From assembly GCA_018062285.1 (NCBI GenBank), contig JAGOSO010000003.1, positions 6,992 through 70,991 on the forward strand: a stretch of 64,000 nucleotides of DNA. Direction: 5' to 3'. The DNA comes from Minisyncoccota bacterium. GTDB taxonomy: Bacteria > Patescibacteriota > Minisyncoccia > 2-02-FULL-40-12 > GWA2-44-9. A model generated the notes under the pieces. That model had not been told where the DNA came from, made no database searches, and saw only the letters and a list, made by a program, of their open reading frames with translations. Below, piece after piece: positions 52,123 through 63,602 of the stretch. The first letter of the stretch is position 1, and the number at the start of each line of letters is the position of its first letter. The position numbers were made by a program, and so were the translations under genes.

Positions 52123-52136
52123 ATGATTATTAACTG

Positions 52137-52208
52137 TGCGACTGGATGGGATCGAACCATCGACCGCGTCATTATAAGTGACGTGCTCTACCACTGAGCT
52201 ACAGTCGC
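52137..52208 (-). tRNA. tRNA-Ile (anticodon TAT / UAU).
   Basis: Acceptor GCGACTG/CAGTCGC, anticodon stem CGTCA/TGACG with loop CT-TAT-AA, T-arm GATGG-TTCGATC-CCATC. The anticodon was read directly from the sequence. No CCA. Confidence 0.7.
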
Positions 52209-57424: not shown

Positions 57425-59854
57425 ATGGAAGATATCAAAGGCATAAAACCAAGAGAGATTGTTGATGAGGTTCAGCAATCGTACATAGAATACGCCATGA
57501 GCGTTATTGTCGCGCGTGCTTTGCCTGATGTGCGCGATGGTTTAAAGCCGGTTCACCGCCGCATTTTGTATTCGATGCAAGAGATGGGTTTGCGTCATTC
57601 TGCTAAGTATCAAAAATCAGCTAAGGTGGTCGGTCATGCCATGGGTAATTACCACCCACACGGTGACTCTGCTATCTATGACTCCTTGGCTCGTATGGCC
57701 CAGGATTTTTCTTTGCGCTATCCATTGGTTGATGGGCAGGGTAACTTTGGTTCGGTTGATGGTGATGCTCCAGCGGCCATGCGTTACACTGAAGCTCGCT
57801 TAGATTCAATCGCGGATCAACTTCTGGCCGACATTGATAAAGATACGGTTAATTTTAGAGATAACTATGATGGCTCGCATCAGGAGCCAGTGGTTTTGCC
57901 AACCAGAATTCCAAACCTGCTTATTAATGGTACCGAAGGTATCGCTGTAGGTATGGCTACTAAAATCCCACCTCACAACTTGAGTGAAATTTTGGCTGCC
58001 ATGATGCATTTGATTGATGAACCAGAAGCCGACCTCAAATCATTGATGCAATTTGTTAAAGGTCCGGATTTTCCAACAGGCGCCACAATTTACAACGAAC
58101 AAGATATTACTAATGCCTATGCCACCGGTCGGGGACCAGTTGTAATGCGCGGTAAGGCAGAAATCGTGGAAGGTAAAAAGGGTTTTCAAATTATTATTTC
58201 CGAAATTCCTTATCAGGTTAACAAGTCCGAGCTAATCATTAAGATGGCTGAACTACATAAGGAAAAAAAGATTGATGGAATCAGGGACTTGCGAGATGAA
58301 TCTGACAAAGACGGCATGCGTATCGCCATTGATTTAAAAAATGACGCTTTCCCTCGCAAAGTTTTGAACCAACTATACAAATACACCGAACTCCAAAAAG
58401 CTTTTCACTTTAATATGATCGCCTTGGTAGACGGTATTCAGCCTCAGACTATGGGTCTGAAGAGTTTGCTTGAGAAATTTATTGAGCATCGCAAAGAAGT
58501 TATTATCCGTCGCAGTAAATTTGATTTACAAAAAGCTAAGGATCGCGCCCATATTTTAGAAGGCTTAAAAAAGGCTTTAGATTTTATTGATGAAGTCATT
58601 AAGATTATTCGTAAGTCTGCAGACAAAGATGAGGCCTCAGCTAACTTAATTAAGCGCTTTAAGTTTTCGACACTCCAAGCTTCTGCCATTTTAGATATGC
58701 GCTTGCAGGCTCTTGCTGGATTGGAGCGCAAAAAAATTGAAGACGAGCTTGCTGAAAAAATGTCGATTATCGAATACCTCGAGAGTTTGCTTAAGAGCCC
58801 AAAGAAAATCCTCGGTGTTGTAAAGGATGAATTTAATGAAATCAAAGAAAAATTTGGCGACGAACGTCGAACAAAAGTCGTTAAGTCGGCCCTCCGAGAA
58901 ATAGGGGAAGAAGAGTTAATTCCAGAAGAGGAGTCCCTATTCATGATTACTCGTGACGGATATGTTAAGCGTATGGCCCCAGACACCCTCAAGGCTCAAA
59001 AGCGTGGCGGTAAGGGCTTGATTGGTATGGCCACCAAAGAAGAAGACGTCGTTTCCCATTTCTTTTTGGCTAACACCCATGACAATTTATTATTCTTTAC
59101 TAATTCCGGAAAAGTATTTCAGACAAAGGGCTATGAAGTCCCAGAATCCTCTAGACAATCAAAAGGAAAAGCCATCGTCAACTTCCTTCAGGTCTCGCCA
59201 AGTGATGTCATTACTGCCGTCGTGCCAATTCCAAAGGGTCAGAAACAAATGTATTTATTTATGGCCACAGAACATGGCGTAATCAAGAAAGTTGAAATGG
59301 ATGCTTTTGAAGCGGTCCGCCGCAATGGTATGATTGCCATTAAATTAAACGCAGATGATCGTTTGGGTTGGGTCTTGCCAACTTCTGGCGATGATCAAAT
59401 CTCAATGGTTACTTCTGGTGGCAATGCGATTCGGTTCAAAGAAAAAGATGTCCGCCCAATGGGTCGTGGCGCTGCTGGTGTTATCGGTGTACGCTTAGGA
59501 AAAGACGAACGTGTCGTTGGTGCCGACATGATTCCTTCAGGTGCCGAAAAGGGCCTACATCTCTTGGTGCTCATGGAAAACGGTTACGGTAAACGCTCAG
59601 CTCTCAATTCGTATAAGATTCAAAAGCGTGGTGGGCATGGTATTATGACTGCAAAATTAACCCCAAAGACCGGCAAGTTGGTTTCTGCTCACGTTACTTC
59701 CGAAGAGAACACTGAAATTATCGCCGTTTCTCTCAAGGGGCAGGTAATCCGAACTTCAATTGAAAGTATTTCTGTTCTCGGTCGAGCCACACAAGGTGTT
59801 CGCGTCATGCGTCTTGATACGGGGGATAAGCTGGCTTCCGTCGCCGTTTCATAG
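57425..59854 (+). CDS. gyrA: DNA gyrase subunit A.
   Basis: Active-site [10 protein letters not shown], a GyrA-box QKRGGKG and a C-terminal beta-pinwheel. 809 aa. Confidence 0.9.
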
Positions 59855-59869
59855 TGCTATAATATTTTT

Positions 59870-60517
59870 GTGAAAACTATCTCTGAAATAATGACCTCTA
59901 AGGTCGTTACTGTTTCTCCTCAAACTCCAATCGTGGAAGCGATTGGAGTTTTGTTGCAGGGCAATTTTAATGGTCTGCCCGTTGTTGATGATAAGGGCTT
60001 TTTGGTGGGGATATTAACCGAATACAATTTCATTGTTGGAAGTTCGTCTATCCATTTACCAACCTTGGTTAAATTGTTTGACCAGCTTGATACGTATAAA
60101 AAGGACCAATACTTGATTAAAGACGAACTTAAAGAAATATTGAAACTAAGTGTTAATGAGGTCATGAACAAAGAACCATTGACTCTTGCGCCAAGTGATT
60201 CAATTGAAAAATTAGCCCAAGTATTTAAGGAGCATCATACCGTTAATCCCATTCCCGTTGTTGACGAGGTTAAGCACTTGGTTGGTGTGGTCAGTCGTTC
60301 TGATTTGTTGAAATTTTTTGGAGACAACCAGATAGAGATTAAGCATGGCACTGAGGCGGAAGTAGATAAAAGCGTATCTATTTTTGTGAAAAATTTTGAA
60401 AATAGGTTCACCTTTGTTAGTAAGACTAGGACTAAGTGGTGGATCGTGGTCAGTTTGCTTTTTGCTCTTGTTGGCTTTGCAATTGCGTGGTTGTTGATAT
60501 TGAGAGTTAACGTTTAG
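59870..60517 (+). CDS. CBS-pair domain protein with a C-terminal TM anchor, 215 aa.
   Basis: Two CBS motifs (…VVTVSPQTPI…GLPVVD…, …PLTLAPSDSI…PIPVVD…) and a terminal TM helix. Confidence 0.75.
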   Translation: MKTISEIMTSKVVTVSPQTPIVEAIGVLLQGNFNGLPVVDDKGFLVGILTEYNFIVGSSSIHLPTLVKLFDQLDTYKKDQYLIKDELKEILKLSVNEVMNKEPLTLAPSDSIEKLAQVFKEHHTVNPIPVVDEVKHLVGVVSRSDLLKFFGDNQIEIKHGTEAEVDKSVSIFVKNFENRFTFVSKTRTKWWIVVSLLFALVGFAIAWLLILRVNV

Positions 60518-60591
60518 TTTTTTGTAGTATCATTATCTGAAGGTCGATTTGGTGATTTTGGTTATAAAAATAAAAATAAAAAATAAATGGA

Positions 60592-61047
60592 ATGGCTTTA
60601 AGTAAAAATAGCATATTAAGGAGTAGGGAATTTTGGATTGGTTTTTTGGTTGCTGTAGTTGTTTTTGTTGGTTTAATTGAATTACAGAAGAGTAATAATC
60701 GGGCAGCGGCCTTGAGCGATCTTAATTCTAAGTTTTCAAAAATAACTAGTCCAACTGCGAGAGCAGCATTAGTTATCAGGGACGAAGCGATTATTAAGGC
60801 CAATAAGTCTTGGTTCAGTTTTTATAACTCTAGCGCTATGATGGCAAGTCCTGATGAGGAAGAAGTTGATAATAAGTGCCGTGGTAACGCAACCGATTGG
60901 ACCTGCAACTTAAGGAATGACAGGGAGCTCATTGGTTCGGTTACTGGCTCCGAGGATTTTAACTTGACCCCAACTCAAGACGAAAATGGTGAGTGGCAGA
61001 TTGGTGTGCCCACACCACCATGCGCTGTGTCAGACGAGGGTTGCTAG
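60592..61047 (+). CDS. Small N-terminally anchored secreted protein, paralog A, with a Cys-rich C-terminal domain. 151 aa.
   Basis: Conserved N-terminus EFWIGFLVAVVVFVGL.ELQ..SNRAAALSDLN shared with paralog B. C-terminal CRGNATDWTCN...CAVSDEGC. Confidence 0.6.
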   Translation: MALSKNSILRSREFWIGFLVAVVVFVGLIELQKSNNRAAALSDLNSKFSKITSPTARAALVIRDEAIIKANKSWFSFYNSSAMMASPDEEEVDNKCRGNATDWTCNLRNDRELIGSVTGSEDFNLTPTQDENGEWQIGVPTPPCAVSDEGC

Positions 61048-61056
61048 TTAAATAAA

Positions 61057-61110
61057 TACAGCAAATCAAAAAAGATCCGCGCGCACGCGGATCTTTTTTG
61101 ATTTGCTGTA
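61057..61110. terminator. 25 bp near-perfect palindromic bidirectional terminator.
   Basis: TACAGCAAATCAAAAAAGATCCGCG-cgca-CGCGGATCTTTTTTGATTTGCTGTA. Confidence 0.85.
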
Positions 61111-61220
61111 TAAATAAAAGTTAGATATTTTTTATCCTGCCCGACCTTGCAATTGCGTGATTGTTGATATTGAGAGTTAATGTTTAGTTTTTTTGTAGTA
61201 TTATTATTTTAAGGTCGAAT

Positions 61221-61640
61221 GTGGTTTTAAAAAATATCAAAAAAATGGCTTATAATTCAAAAAACATGTTAAAGAGCAAGGAATTTTGGATTGGTTTTTT
61301 GGTTGCTGTAGTTGTTTTTGTCGGCCTAGGAGAATTGCAAAGAGGGAGCAATCGAGCAGCAGCGTTAAGTGATCTTAATGCCAAATGGGCCACCCTAAAG
61401 GGTGATTCCCAGAAGGACATTGCGCTCACGTGGGCAACGTCTGTCATGTTTCAAAATAAATCTTGGTTTGATTTTTCAAACTCAAGTGCTGACGAAGGGG
61501 ATGGAGAAGGGGATGGAGAAAAAAGACCGAGGGAATACGGCATGGAGTTCTGGAATCGTGTCAGCCCTGTTGTGCCTTCTGTTATGACGGGTTGGGGTTG
61601 GTTTAACCCAGACACAGGCGCATGGGTTGAAGGTCGCTAG
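61221..61640 (+). CDS. Small N-terminally anchored secreted protein, paralog B, with a Gly/Asp/Glu-rich and Trp-containing C-terminal domain. 139 aa.
   Basis: Same N-terminal 45 aa as paralog A. The C-terminus (DEGDGEGDGEK...GWGWFNPDTGAWVEGR) is unrelated. Confidence 0.6.
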   Translation: MVLKNIKKMAYNSKNMLKSKEFWIGFLVAVVVFVGLGELQRGSNRAAALSDLNAKWATLKGDSQKDIALTWATSVMFQNKSWFDFSNSSADEGDGEGDGEKRPREYGMEFWNRVSPVVPSVMTGWGWFNPDTGAWVEGR

Positions 61641-61654
61641 TAACTAATTTAGAT

Positions 61655-61691
61655 AAAACAAAAACGACCCAGTTGGGGTCGTTTTTGTTTT
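61655..61691. terminator. Bidirectional A/T-flanked hairpin terminator.
   Basis: AAAACAAAAACGACCC-agtt-GGGGTCGTTTTTGTTTT. Confidence 0.8.
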
Positions 61692-61739
61692 GGTGGATAA
61701 CTAAAATTAAAATAAGTTTTGTTGTGATAAAATTAAAAG

Positions 61740-62291
61740 GTGGAACCAACTAATACACCTTTGGAAGGTTTTCTAGACCCTGATGCGGTTGTCGGGGAGT
61801 TTGGGATTTTACCCGGCATGAGAATTGCCGACTTTGGTTGCGGTGCTGGTCATATCGGAATAATGGTGGCCCAACAGGTTGGGAAGGATGGTCTTGTTGT
61901 TGCTGTCGACATAATGGAAGACAAGCTAGAGAGTATTAAGGCTAGGGCAAAAGCTTCCGGCTTAGAGAATTTAGAAATCAAAAGAGCCAACCTAGAGGTT
62001 CCAAATAATACTGGCCTTGGTGATAGTACCCAAGACCTAGTTCTTCTTATTAACATTCTTTTTCAATCAAATAAAAAATCTGACATTATTAAAGAAGCAA
62101 AAAGAGTTTTAAAAACTGGCTCACAGGTTGTTGTGGTTGATTGGAAAAAGGGGGGCGGTGGATTCGGTCCGCCTAACAACCTAAGGACAGAGGTGGTTGA
62201 TATGCAAAATCTTTTTACGAACGAGGGTCTCAGTCTTGTGCGTCAGTTTAACGCTGGGCAATTCCATTACGGTTTAATTTTTAAAAAATAG
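61740..62291 (+). CDS. Class I SAM-dependent methyltransferase. The start codon is uncertain (GTG at 61740 or the internal ATG).
   Basis: Motif I DFGCGAGH and an acidic motif II (VVAVDI). Confidence 0.7.
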   Translation: MEPTNTPLEGFLDPDAVVGEFGILPGMRIADFGCGAGHIGIMVAQQVGKDGLVVAVDIMEDKLESIKARAKASGLENLEIKRANLEVPNNTGLGDSTQDLVLLINILFQSNKKSDIIKEAKRVLKTGSQVVVVDWKKGGGGFGPPNNLRTEVVDMQNLFTNEGLSLVRQFNAGQFHYGLIFKK

Positions 62292-62297
62292 TTTCTC

Positions 62298-63602
62298 ATG
62301 AATAGTAAAAAGTTAATGTACATTTTGGTCGGTGTCATATCCGTTGCAGTTTTGATTACAATTGTTTTGGTTTTAAAGAATGTGGGTGGGTCAATTTCAA
62401 AACCAGTCACTCTTCAATTTTGGGGAGTGTTTGATGACCATAATGATTTTGACGCTACTGTAAAAAACTTTAAATCTCAAAATCCTGGAATTGATGTTAA
62501 GTATCAATTGTTTACTTTTCAGCAATATGAATCAGGATTTGTTAATGCCTTGGCAGCTGGAACAGGCCCAGATGTTCTGATGATTCACAACACTTGGCTA
62601 CCTAAGCATGGTGACAAGTTGGCTCCAATGCCTGCCACAGGCGTGCCTGACACAAAAACACCATTTACTCTACAGAATTTTAAAGATCAATTTGTCGATG
62701 TTGCTTATCAGGACTTAGTGTTTAATAATCAGATTTATGGCATGCCTTTGTATACCGATACGCTGGGTCTTTATTACAACAAAGATTTGTTTAATAGTGC
62801 TGGAATTGCTCGTCCACCTCAGACATGGGATGAGGTTAATTCAGACGTCCAATTGTTGACCAAGATTGATAAGAGTAACAATGTTATTCAGTCCGGGTTT
62901 TCTTTGGGAACTGCTCGCAACATAAACCGTTCCACCGATATTTTAATGGACATGATGATTCAGTCAGGTGCTCAAATGACCTCTGTTGATCAGCGGTCAG
63001 CCAGTTTTTCTCAAAACGTTAACGGTCAGCCAGTTGGCCAAATTGCATTACAGTATTACACAAACTTTGCTAACCCTCGAAATCAGAATTATTCCTGGAA
63101 CGATAGTCAGCACTACTCGATAGATGCTTTTACAGAGGGCACTGTGGCCATGATGCTCGGATACGCTCATGATACGCAAGTTATTAGATCCAAGGCGCCT
63201 CGTCTGAATTTTGCTGTCGCCCCAATGCCACAAGCATCGATAAGTGATGTTAGAAATTTTGCTAACTACTGGGCCGTTGCGGTTCCCTCAAAATCCACTA
63301 ATCAGTTGCAGGCTTGGAAATTTGTAAATTATTTATCCTCAAAGGAGGGGATAACAAGTTATCTTAATGCCACAAATCGCCCTTCTGCTCGAAGGGATTT
63401 AATTGATTTACAGAGGAGTGACCCGGATACTGGGGTTTTTGCTGTTCAGGCTCTTTCTGCTCGTTCGTGGTTCCAGGCAGACAATACAGCGATAGAAGGA
63501 ATTTTTGCGGACATGATTGATGATGTTAATTTTAATCGGTCTTCGCTCAAAGAAGCGATAACCCGAGCCGAATCTAGGGTTACGGTACTCATGCAACGTT
63601 AA
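62298..63602 (+). CDS. ABC transporter substrate-binding protein (family 1, sugar-type), N-terminally anchored. 434 aa.
   Basis: TM anchor, then an SBP_bac_1-like sequence (…WGVFDDHN…KYQLFTFQQYESGF…AGTGPDVLMIHNTWLP…). Confidence 0.8.
   Translation: MNSKKLMYILVGVISVAVLITIVLVLKNVGGSISKPVTLQFWGVFDDHNDFDATVKNFKSQNPGIDVKYQLFTFQQYESGFVNALAAGTGPDVLMIHNTWLPKHGDKLAPMPATGVPDTKTPFTLQNFKDQFVDVAYQDLVFNNQIYGMPLYTDTLGLYYNKDLFNSAGIARPPQTWDEVNSDVQLLTKIDKSNNVIQSGFSLGTARNINRSTDILMDMMIQSGAQMTSVDQRSASFSQNVNGQPVGQIALQYYTNFANPRNQNYSWNDSQHYSIDAFTEGTVAMMLGYAHDTQVIRSKAPRLNFAVAPMPQASISDVRNFANYWAVAVPSKSTNQLQAWKFVNYLSSKEGITSYLNATNRPSARRDLIDLQRSDPDTGVFAVQALSARSWFQADNTAIEGIFADMIDDVNFNRSSLKEAITRAESRVTVLMQR

What the first reader, a model, noticed from the sequence alone, without database searches (positions are those of the whole stretch)
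60480..61696. Recent tandem duplication producing two small anchored secreted proteins with the same N-terminus but unrelated C-terminal domains
About 250 nt, comprising the last 40 nt of the CBS gene, the spacer, and the first ~45 codons (MxxK.KEFWIGFLVAVVVFVGL.ELQ..SNRAAALSDLN), are duplicated at about 85% identity. Downstream, copy A encodes a Cys-rich domain (four Cys, likely disulfide-bonded). Copy B encodes a Gly/Asp/Glu-rich, Trp-containing domain. Each copy ends in a very strong palindromic terminator. This resembles a cassette system: a fixed export/anchor module fused to variable extracellular heads. Such a system would be used for surface variation or polymorphic toxin/immunity-like functions.
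Basis: seen in the sequence. Interest (0 to 1): 0.6.

Follow-up and report, generated by a model that had tools for sequence, protein, structure and literature searches.

The report
Two-type anchored surface protein, tandem copies
Two neighbouring genes in an uncultured Pacebacteria (CPR) genome are old, full-length paralogues of a small, uncharacterised membrane-anchored protein family; they share a recently homogenised promoter and anchor segment but carry two ancient, still homologous head types, and close relatives have one type or the other at the same locus.

Summary
The repeat is real. A unit of about 670 bp was duplicated in tandem: the last 41 nt of the CBS gene, a spacer with a promoter-like box, the whole small gene, its terminator and about 25 nt beyond.

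"Recent" and "unrelated C-termini" do not hold.
- Protein homology runs over residues 1-82 (54% identity).
- The tails are linked through family members and through a shared terminal Trp-rich hairpin motif.
- Synonymous sites outside the membrane segment are largely changed. The 3' flanks are only 73% identical.
- Each copy is closer to a gene in another genome than to its neighbour.
- The 39-nt membrane-segment coding block is 100% identical between the copies, but differs at 5-13 positions between lineages. This indicates gene conversion or recombination of the 5' module.

In close relatives the locus (gyrA, CBS, X, methyltransferase, solute-binding protein) holds a single gene. Two contigs with about 93% identical flanks carry either an A-type or a B-type body.

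The family has about 30 members, all found so far in Parcubacteria-type CPR bacteria. It has no Pfam, NCBIfam, PHROG, PADLOC, PDB or fold match.

Best reading: a variable cell-surface protein locus, with a conserved promoter and anchor and exchangeable head types. It is not a toxin/immunity cassette. The function is inferred, not shown.

The parts
59870..60517 (+). Upstream gene: a CBS-pair protein (215 aa) with a C-terminal hydrophobic tail. Its last 41 nt are the first block of the duplicated unit.
   Evidence: Pfam CBS, E 4.6e-29. The same gene precedes the family member in L001, L003, L004-L007 and L018.
60477..61146 (+). Duplicated unit, copy A (about 670 bp): CBS 3' end, spacer, gene A, terminator A and a short distal flank.
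   Evidence: Repeat families D1-D3 with spacings of 653-671 nt. 3' flank homology 61088-61132 against 61675-61720, 33/45 identical, reached by 0 of 500 shuffles.
60528..60547 (+). Promoter-like -10 box TATCAT (60528-60533), followed by an invariant GGTCGA (60542-60547).
   Evidence: The TAT(A/C/T)AT-type box (TACGAT in L018) and GGTCGA are conserved in six upstream regions from five loci, including L008, where the CBS gene is absent. That this is a promoter is inferred; the generic sigma-70 scan did not call it.
60592..61047 (+). Gene A (151 aa, P0001, NCBI KBC81_02295), A-type body. It has a basic N-tail, a membrane helix, a helical stalk, the NKSWFSFYNSSA motif, an acidic linker, a Cys-loop head (C95, C104), a GEWQIG hairpin and an extra C-terminal Cys pair (C143, C151).
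   Evidence: AlphaFold: pLDDT 69.8, helices 8-48 and 54-70, strands 127-129 and 135-137. The tail is homologous to the P0015 tail, E 3e-8.
60628..60668 (+). 41-nt block, 100% identical to 61281-61321 (codons 13-25 and 2 nt more, the membrane helix). This is the gene-conversion or recombination tract.
   Evidence: Synonymous changes: 0 of 12 here against 16 of 29 elsewhere, Fisher p = 0.001. The same codons differ at 5-13 nt between lineages.
61056..61111 (.). Terminator A: a perfect palindrome with 26-nt arms (A-run, GC stem, T-run) that could act in both directions.
   Evidence: I1.: -41.7 kcal/mol, z -11.9. (terminator-like on the minus strand).
61112..61146 (+). Distal flank of unit A and the duplication junction. 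The sequence is unique in the window and ends in ...ATCCTGCCCGACC, directly abutting the CBS remnant.
   Evidence: No second copy with up to 7 mismatches. Identity to the real CBS sequence left of 60477 is at chance level, 47%.
61147..61187 (+). Dead remnant of the CBS gene 3' end (39/41 identical to 60477-60517), with TGG changed to TGA at 61158-61160.
   Evidence: and direct reading.
61199..61218 (+). Promoter-like -10 box TATTAT (61199-61204) and GGTCGA (61213-61218) of copy B.
   Evidence: alignment A7. The function is inferred.
61245..61640 (+). Gene B (131 aa, P0002, NCBI KBC81_02300), B-type body. It has the same N-module, stalk and NKSWFDFSNSSA motif, an EGDGEGDG linker, no Cys, and a terminal hairpin WGWFNPDTGAWVEGR.
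   Evidence: AlphaFold: pLDDT 72.9, helices 12-48 and 54-70, strands 118-121 and 126-129. The tail is homologous to the P0008 tail, E 1e-9. P0003 aligns over residues 1-137.
61655..61691 (.). Terminator B: a perfect palindrome with 16-nt arms.
   Evidence: I2.: -24.9 kcal/mol, z -5.9.
61740..62291 (+). Downstream boundary gene: a class I SAM methyltransferase (183 aa). It lies outside the duplication.
   Evidence: Pfam Methyltransf_31, E 5.5e-19. It is syntenic in most related loci; in L016/L017 an FtsJ-type methyltransferase follows instead.

Best explanation
Window 60477-61733 holds two complete, self-contained transcription units in tandem. Each has a promoter-like box, an ORF and an intrinsic terminator.

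Each encodes a member of a small, unannotated protein family, found so far in Parcubacteria-type CPR bacteria (the few named records are Pacebacteria/Paceibacterota and Yanofskybacteria). The proteins are single-pass membrane proteins, most likely N-in/C-out. Their parts, in order:
- a short basic cytoplasmic tail;
- a membrane helix that continues into a helical hairpin stalk;
- an invariant N-x-S-x-F-x-F motif, followed by near-invariant N-S and an invariant A (NKSWFxFSNSSA);
- an acidic, low-complexity linker;
- a small Trp-rich C-terminal head ending in a beta-hairpin, W-x-W-x-(D/N)-P-x-T-G-x-W-x-x-G.

The whole unit was duplicated, with the left breakpoint 41 nt before the CBS stop codon. 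The two bodies are old. They represent two head and stalk types (A and B) that predate the split from the L001/L013 lineage. In those close relatives the types occupy the same single-copy locus alternately.

The 5' module (CBS remnant, promoter region, membrane helix) is kept nearly identical within each lineage. This is due to gene conversion or homologous recombination, with a breakpoint zone at about codons 26-45.

The tandem array therefore arose in one of two ways. Either it is an old duplication with later 5' homogenisation, or it came from unequal recombination that joined two pre-existing alleles.

Inferred function: a surface-exposed protein whose head is under diversifying or balancing selection, for example as a contact point for phage, host or partner cells. 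This genome displays both head types.

Shown: the anatomy, the homology, the synteny and the mosaic identity pattern. Inferred: promoter activity, topology, surface exposure and the selective reason.
For: Duplication and its extent.

Full-length homology:
- Residues 1-82 are 54% identical.
- The family alignment has 8 columns invariant in all 17 sequences, including both copies (E30, R37, A40, L44, N71, S73, F77, A82); N45, F75, N79 and S80 are near-invariant.
- Tail-only comparisons give E 3e-8, 1e-9 and 0.002.
- AlphaFold gives both copies the same architecture.

Old bodies:
- 16 of 29 conserved codons outside the membrane helix carry synonymous changes.
- The 3' flank is 73% identical.
- In residues 38-82, A matches P0007 at 27/45 and B matches P0003 at 26/45, against 19/45 for A with B.

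Homogenised 5' module:
- There are 0 differences in 39 nt within this genome, against 5-13 between lineages. The contrast in synonymous changes gives Fisher p = 0.001.
- P0003 and P0007 are identical at 25/25 in residues 13-37 but only 18/45 in residues 38-82.

Alternating types at one locus:
- L001 and L013 have 88-100% identical flanks and a 350-bp island of 25-53% identity.
- Their methyltransferase proteins are 94% identical.

Conserved synteny and copy number:
- Single-copy synteny gyrA, CBS, X, methyltransferase, solute-binding protein.
- An independent three-gene array in L003.

Topology and exposure:
- The N-tail carries net +1.9 per protein, against +0.8 in the 15 residues after the helix.
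- The Cys count is even (0, 2 or 4) in 26 of 27 members.

Own promoter: the -10-like box and GGTCGA are conserved in six upstream regions.
Against: - No experimental or annotation evidence for function exists. There is no Pfam, NCBIfam, PHROG, PADLOC, PDB-sequence or Foldseek match.
- The C-terminal heads are modelled at low confidence (pLDDT 41-63 for A; 42-76 for B).
- The A/B typing rests on short segments (45 residues) and few genomes, and the neighbour-joining trees are unsupported by resampling.
- Differential loss from a two-copy ancestor and allelic exchange cannot be told apart.
- High conservation of the CBS remnant in copy B could reflect promoter constraint rather than conversion.
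- The generic promoter scan did not call the proposed promoters.
- The tandem arrangement comes from a metagenome-assembled contig. The second public record is sequence-identical, so it is not independent confirmation.
Confidence: 0.7

Rival explanations
1. A recent tandem duplication of about 250 nt plus a gene was followed by very fast divergence, or by replacement of the C-terminal domain with unrelated sequence. That would give a cassette system of polymorphic toxin/immunity type.
For: The 5' blocks are 90-100% identical, including non-coding DNA. The heads differ strongly at DNA level: 32-41% identity.
Against: - Synonymous sites are largely changed just outside the 41-nt block.
- The 3' flank is only 73% identical.
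- Each copy has closer relatives in other genomes than its neighbour.
- The tails are homologous through P0015 and P0008.
- No toxin or immunity domain, no immunity gene, and no further cassettes in 64 kb.
Confidence: 0.05
2. This is an assembly artefact. Two co-existing strains, one with an A-type and one with a B-type allele at a single-copy locus, were stitched into a false tandem.
For: - Close relatives do carry alternative alleles in near-identical flanks.
- The contig is from a metagenome-assembled genome.
- The only other record is sequence-identical.
Against: - The A-to-B join runs through a unique 35-nt sequence (61112-61146) into a CBS remnant.
- That remnant differs from the true CBS end at 2 of 41 positions and carries a premature TGA.
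- Left of 61147 there is no similarity to the CBS gene (47% identity).
- A k-mer mis-join would occur inside a shared repeat. It would not create a new junction.
- L003 shows that real tandem arrays of this family exist.
Confidence: 0.05
3. The protein is not a variable surface molecule. It is a membrane partner or regulator of the tail-anchored CBS-pair protein encoded just upstream, for example a sensor-transducer pair. Under this view the divergence of the C-terminal part reflects weak constraint rather than selection for diversity.
For: - The CBS gene and X are adjacent in Pacebacteria- and Yanofskybacteria-type genomes. The spacing is as tight as 10 nt in L004-L007.
- Both proteins have a single membrane helix.
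- The conserved part of X is the helix and stalk.
Against: - X occurs without the CBS gene in L008 and L016.
- X has its own conserved promoter-like box and terminator.
- The sharp divergence island in otherwise ~93% identical backgrounds, and the persistence of two types across lineages, are not expected from relaxed constraint alone.
- The terminal hairpin motif is conserved.
Confidence: 0.15
4. One copy is a decaying pseudogene left over from the duplication. Copy B, which lost the Cys loop, and copy A, with its aberrant C-terminus, are both candidates.
For: Copy B lacks the Cys loop and the first NVET-W element. Copy A lacks the WxW and the GG(K/R) end found in most members.
Against: - Both ORFs are intact and keep all 8 family-invariant residues; the near-invariant positions N45, F75, N79 and S80 are also retained.
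- Codons 26-45 show 12 synonymous against 4 non-synonymous codon changes.
- Both keep the promoter-like box and a strong terminator.
Confidence: 0.05

Closest known systems
Type IV pilin allele groups (for example Pseudomonas aeruginosa pilA groups, held at a fixed locus)
   Same: A small protein with a conserved N-terminal hydrophobic helix and a divergent C-terminal head, sometimes with a disulfide loop. Highly divergent allele types occupy one conserved chromosomal position, with recombination in conserved flanks. This comparison rests on my general knowledge of pilin genetics, not on a tool result.
   Different: There is no class III signal (G/FxxxE); the N-terminus reads K-x-(E/Q)-F-W-I-G-F-L. 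No Pfam pilin or N_methyl hit. The predicted fold is a helical hairpin with a disordered linker and a single hairpin, not an alpha-beta pilin fold. There are no pilus assembly genes next to it.
Tandem paralogous surface-protein genes with partial gene conversion (concerted evolution of 5' ends, as in many bacterial variable surface-protein families)
   Same: The 5' segment is identical within a genome and different between genomes. The bodies follow a different phylogeny. The genes are direct tandem repeats.
   Different: There are only two copies and no silent cassettes in 64 kb. There is no evidence of ongoing switching. The family is unannotated and found only in CPR bacteria so far.
Idiomorph or pherotype-like dimorphic loci (for example agr or comC allele groups): ancient divergent alleles in conserved flanks
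   Same: A sharp divergence island (25-53% identity) sits inside 88-100% identical flanks in L001 and L013. The types are shared across lineages.
   Different: No co-varying receptor or processing gene was seen next to it. The product is a membrane-anchored protein of 115-166 aa, not a processed peptide. The only nearby dip in identity is at the methyltransferase 3' end and the start of the solute-binding protein gene, and it was not examined.
Polymorphic toxin / immunity cassettes
   Same: A conserved N-terminal module with variable C-termini, and tandem arrangement.
   Different: No toxin or immunity domain, no cognate immunity ORF, very small proteins, and C-termini that are mutually homologous.

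Membership tests
Tandem segmental duplication | Two directly repeated copies of one unit, head to tail, with homology at both ends of the unit and a novel junction | tested here: met
   5' blocks are 90-100% identical. 3' flanks are 33/45 identical, above all 500 shuffles. The junction at 61146/61147 is unique.
   16 of 29 conserved codons carry synonymous changes. The 3' flank is 73% identical. A is closer to P0007 and B closer to P0003 and P0005.
Gene conversion / concerted evolution of a segment | The segment is more alike within a genome than between genomes, and its tree disagrees with the tree of the rest of the gene | tested here: met
   Membrane-helix block: 0/39 differences within the genome against 5-13/39 between lineages. 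Fisher p = 0.001 for synonymous changes. Segment trees are incongruent. Allelic recombination would give the same signal.
Type IV pilin / pseudopilin | Class III signal peptide: Gly at -1, Phe/Met at +1, Glu at +5; an N_methyl motif | tested here: not met
   The sequence reads ...S(R/K)EFWIGFLVAVVVF..., with no G-F junction and no Glu at +5. No Pfam hit in any of 17 members.
Polymorphic toxin system | A recognisable C-terminal toxin domain and an adjacent cognate immunity gene | tested here: not met
   No Pfam or PADLOC domain. The only such hit, Imm35 at E 0.62 in one member, is noise. The next gene is the paralogue or the methyltransferase.
Silent-cassette antigenic variation (pilE/pilS type) | Additional promoterless partial copies that donate sequence to the expressed gene | tested here: not met
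   There are no further protein or DNA copies of the module or the heads in the 64-kb window. The rest of the genome could not be searched.
Diversity-generating retroelement target | A template repeat about 90% identical to the variable region, with adenine-specific differences, and a nearby reverse transcriptase | tested here: not met
   Neither head has a second DNA copy in the window. A reverse transcriptase was not specifically searched for.
Rho-independent (intrinsic) terminator | A GC-containing stem-loop followed by a T-run, directly after the stop codon | tested here: met
   Both hairpins begin 8-15 nt after the stop codon and include T-runs in the descending arm. Activity was not tested.
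Bitopic N-in/C-out (type II) membrane protein | A single hydrophobic helix of about 19-20 residues, positive-inside charge bias, no signal-peptidase site close to the helix, and extracytoplasmic features | tested here: inconclusive
   Mean Kyte-Doolittle hydropathy is 2.0-2.3 over 19 residues. The N-tail is +3, against +1 after the helix. Cys counts are even across the family. AlphaFold gives a continuous helix 8-48. No dedicated topology or signal-peptide predictor was available. An AAA motif at residues 38-40 lies 10-12 residues beyond the hydrophobic core.

The most novel reading that the evidence does not exclude
The locus is an ancient dimorphic, idiomorph-like recognition locus of Parcubacteria-type CPR bacteria. 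Two or more head types of a membrane-anchored surface protein would be maintained across genera by balancing selection and exchanged by recombination in a conserved promoter and anchor module. The types would set specificity for a partner: a host cell, kin or phage. This genome would have captured both types in tandem. The invariant N-x-S motif could be a glycosylation site. The homopolymer tract upstream of the promoter box in some relatives could add on/off switching.
Probability: 0.2. Interest if true: 0.6.

Novelty: new member of a known kind. Interest (0 to 1): 0.38.

Why it matters
CPR bacteria are thought to live attached to other cells, yet almost nothing is known about their surface molecules. 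This small family sits in a conserved chromosomal position and has a conserved anchor. Its head types differ sharply between near-identical genomes. That makes it a concrete, cheap-to-test candidate for a strain-specific surface determinant, such as a phage receptor or a host or partner contact. It could also serve as a marker locus for strain typing in metagenomes. It is in addition a clean small example of mosaic evolution: an old paralogue or allele pair with a freshly homogenised promoter and anchor segment. If the heads turn out to be unimportant, this is simply an ordinary duplicated hypothetical gene.

Tried and rejected
- Known-family searches for both copies and relatives all found nothing meaningful: Pfam, NCBIfam, PHROGs, PADLOC, PDB sequences with a family profile (46; only FAM50A at E 0.008, treated as noise), and Foldseek against the PDB with the copy A model (57; best E 3.2, generic helical hairpins).
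- Rfam on 59800-62400 gave only sub-threshold hits on the terminator hairpins.
- Collection scans found nothing. Population-level data for the window's own species could therefore not be obtained.
- A third profile search of the protein database with 27 sequences added only P0027 and confirmed the 166-aa L003 paralogue. The family stays small.
- Rejected readings: pilin (no class III signal); polymorphic toxin (no domains, no immunity gene); DGR or silent cassettes (no second DNA copy in the window); pseudogene (the invariant residues are kept).
- The sigma-70 scan's hit at 61227-61256 was rejected as a promoter for copy B, because its -10 hexamer lies inside the ORF.
- The GTG start at 61221 for copy B was rejected in favour of the ATG at 61245, which aligns with copy A and with the orthologues.
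- One paper search found no prior description.
Full report
**Source and genes.** The window comes from a metagenome-assembled "Candidatus Pacebacteria" (Paceibacterota, CPR) genome. The two small ORFs are NCBI hypothetical proteins KBC81_02295 (151 aa, 60592-61047, here copy A) and KBC81_02300 (131 aa, 61245-61640, here copy B). They lie between a CBS-pair gene with a C-terminal hydrophobic tail (59870-60517) and a class I methyltransferase gene (61740-62291). gyrA lies upstream and a family-1 solute-binding protein gene downstream.

**Checking the observation.** The repeat is real and far beyond chance.
- 60477-60523 matches 61147-61193 at 96%.
- 60518-60547 matches 61189-61218 at 90%.
- A 41-nt block, 60628-60668, is identical to 61281-61321. 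Shuffles expect 0 matches.
- blastn joins these into one 253-column match at 78% identity, E 1e-51. My segment count gives 188/232, or 81%, excluding an 18-nt indel.
- The first block is the last 41 nt of the CBS gene. In copy B it is a dead remnant, with TGG changed to TGA at 61158-61160.
- The Cys content of A, the Gly/Asp/Glu- and Trp-rich tail of B, and both strong palindromic terminators are confirmed. The terminators fold at -41.7 kcal/mol (z -11.9) and -24.9 kcal/mol (z -5.9).

**Where the description falls short.**
- Protein similarity does not stop at codon 45. It runs ungapped through residue 82 (54% identity, E 1e-28) and includes a shared motif, NKSWF-x-F-x-NSSA.
- The 3' flanks of the two genes (the descending terminator arm plus about 25 nt) are also homologous: 33/45 identical, score 35 against a maximum of 29 in 500 shuffles.
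- The duplicated unit is therefore the whole gene with its upstream and downstream signals, about 670 bp (60477 to about 61146, and 61147 to about 61733).
- The junction sequence 61112-61146 is unique in the window. Left of 61147 there is no similarity to the CBS gene.

**The C-termini are related.**
- A full scan of 1.84 billion representative proteins found only 15 relatives. Profile searches of 5.8 billion clusters brought the family to about 30 sequences of 85-166 aa; the few that carry a source name are from Pacebacteria/Paceibacterota or Yanofskybacteria.
- In the alignment, 8 columns are invariant in all 17 sequences, both copies included (E30, R37, A40, L44, N71, S73, F77, A82); N45, F75, N79 and S80 are near-invariant.
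- Both copies also share a terminal W...G pattern belonging to the family motif W-x-W-x-(D/N)-P-x-T-G-x-W-x-x-G.
- With tails alone, tail A matches the tail of P0015 (E 3e-8; Cys loop C..W.CNLRND plus GEW). Tail B matches the tail of P0008 (E 1e-9) and the hairpin of P0015 (E 0.002).
- P0008 and P0003 align nearly full-length to the copies.
- AlphaFold2 with an 18-sequence alignment gives both copies the same architecture. It has a confident helix from about residue 8-12 to 48 (membrane helix plus stalk), a second helix 54-70, a low-confidence acidic linker and a C-terminal beta-hairpin (A 127-137; B 118-129, pLDDT about 76).
- Copy A has kept the Cys loop and lost the WxW. Copy B has lost the Cys loop and kept the WxW hairpin.

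**Not recent.**
- Outside the membrane-helix block, 16 of 29 codons with a conserved amino acid carry synonymous changes. Within codons 13-25 the count is 0 of 12 (Fisher p = 0.001).
- The non-coding 3' flank is only 73% identical.
- In residues 38-82, copy A is closest to P0007 (27/45) and copy B to P0003 (26/45). A against B is 19/45.
- tblastn scores agree: P0005 and P0003 score better on B, while P0007, P0012 and P0015 score better on A.
- The bodies therefore diverged before the window's lineage split from the lineage of L001/L013, whose neighbouring proteins are 72-88% identical to the window's.

**A homogenised 5' module.**
- The 39-nt block encoding EFWIGFLVAVVVF is identical in A and B. 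It differs at 5-13 positions from the same codons in L001, L013, L008 and L018, mostly at synonymous sites.
- There is thus no nucleotide-level constraint that would explain the identity.
- The module follows the genome and the body follows the type. This is the signature of gene conversion or homologous recombination.
- The identity profile along A against B is: 95%, 90%, 65%, 69%, 100%, 68%, 32%, 78%, 41%. It mirrors the profile between two different genomes described next.

**Related loci.**
- L001/L002 (P0003), L018 (P0006) and four Yanofskybacteria-type contigs (P0013) have a single family member in the same order: gyrA, CBS, X, methyltransferase, solute-binding protein (with an SLT/T4SS-pilin-like gene further downstream where the contig extends that far: L003-L007, L015, L018).
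- L001 (P0003, B-type) and L013 (P0007, A-type) are 88-100% identical through the CBS 3' end, the spacer, the first ~18 codons, the terminator and the methyltransferase gene. Their methyltransferase proteins are 94% identical. From about codon 19-38 to the last few codons they fall to 25-53%.
- Two ancient body types thus alternate at one locus in close relatives. The window's genome has both.
- L003 has three diverged family members in tandem between CBS and the methyltransferase gene, so arrays arose more than once.
- The family also occurs without the CBS gene, in L008 and L016.

**Signals.**
- Six upstream regions share a -10-like box, TAT(A/C/T)AT (TACGAT in L018), followed 8-10 nt later (19 nt in L008) by an invariant GGTCGA. 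This includes L008, which lacks the CBS gene.
- In the window these lie at 60528-60533 and 60542-60547, and at 61199-61204 and 61213-61218.
- Each copy therefore looks like an autonomous unit of promoter, ORF and terminator. This could partly explain why the "CBS remnant" upstream of B stays conserved.
- Promoter activity is inferred. The generic sigma-70 scan did not call these sites. Its one hit near B has its -10 hexamer inside the ORF.

**What the protein probably is.**
- It has one hydrophobic helix (mean hydropathy 2.0-2.3 over 19 residues).
- It has a short basic N-tail (+3), against +1 after the helix. Family-wide the figures are +1.9 and +0.8.
- Cys counts are even in 26 of 27 members.
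- It has an invariant N-x-S and a Trp-rich end.
- Together these point to an N-in/C-out anchored, extracytoplasmic protein.
- No library gives a function.
- I therefore read it as a surface-exposed protein with a conserved stalk and a rapidly evolving head. Its type diversity would be maintained by selection from phage, host or partner contact. This step is inference.

**Rivals.**
- A false tandem from strain mixing is unlikely. The junction is a novel sequence that abuts a mutated CBS remnant rather than a shared k-mer. However, the only second record is sequence-identical, so read-level confirmation is still needed.
- A role as a membrane partner of the CBS protein is compatible with the tight linkage. 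It does not explain the divergence island, and it is not exclusive of the main reading.
- A toxin/immunity cassette, pilin, DGR target, silent-cassette system and pseudogene were each tested and not supported.

**Verdict.**
- This is a real tandem pair of an unannotated CPR protein family.
- The event is not recent, the heads are homologous, and nothing points to toxins.
- The phenomenon (a variable surface-protein locus with recombining conserved ends) is of a well-known kind. The family and its two-type pattern in CPR bacteria are new details.
- Interest is moderate.

Noticed in passing
L008 335-344; L009-L012 at the contig starts: A homopolymer of 9-12 or more G lies immediately upstream of the -10-like box ATTATAAT of the family gene P0005. 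Four of the five contigs break at or near it, and L009 shows a poly-C/poly-G fold-back. It could be a slippage-prone (phase-variable) promoter tract, or merely a sequencing or assembly problem.
   Followed up: partly
L008 240-306: The CBS gene is missing in this relative. A remnant of about 60 nt of the gyrA 3' end (…VRVMRLDAGDKLASIVVA*) sits upstream of the family gene, preceded by an unrelated ORF. This is another rearrangement at the same spot that retains the 3' end of an upstream gene.
   Followed up: no
L001 5090-5131 and 5192-5371 against L013: A second drop in identity (40-68%) in otherwise 90-100% identical DNA. It covers the methyltransferase 3' end, the intergenic spacer and the first codons of the solute-binding protein gene. 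I did not examine whether it co-varies with the X type.
   Followed up: no
L003 4186-5411: Three tandem family members lie between the CBS and methyltransferase genes in another CPR contig (GCA_034680565.1). They are a distant 166-aa form with four Cys (P0028), a 95-aa short form and the 136-aa P0015. Their N-termini are not homogenised, unlike those in the window.
   Followed up: partly
window 61494-61517: An exact 12-nt tandem repeat, GAAGGGGATGGA x2, encodes EGDGEGDG in the acidic linker of copy B. It is a small in-frame slippage expansion (D4).
   Followed up: no
window 60542-60547 and 61213-61218; L001, L013, L018, L008 upstream regions: An invariant hexamer GGTCGA lies 8-10 nt (19 nt in L008) downstream of the -10-like box in all six upstream regions compared. 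It could be the transcription start region or a binding site. There is no Rfam match.
   Followed up: partly
window 52136-52208 (-): ARAGORN calls a tRNA-Ile with anticodon TAT, which to my knowledge is uncommon in bacteria, next to a tRNA-Val(TAC). There are eleven tRNA genes in the window.
   Followed up: no
window 60802-60837 and 61455-61490; all family members: The invariant N-x-S within QNKSWFxFSNSSA is a sequon-like motif present in every member, and most members have a second N-S-S. Possible glycosylation is pure speculation.
   Followed up: no
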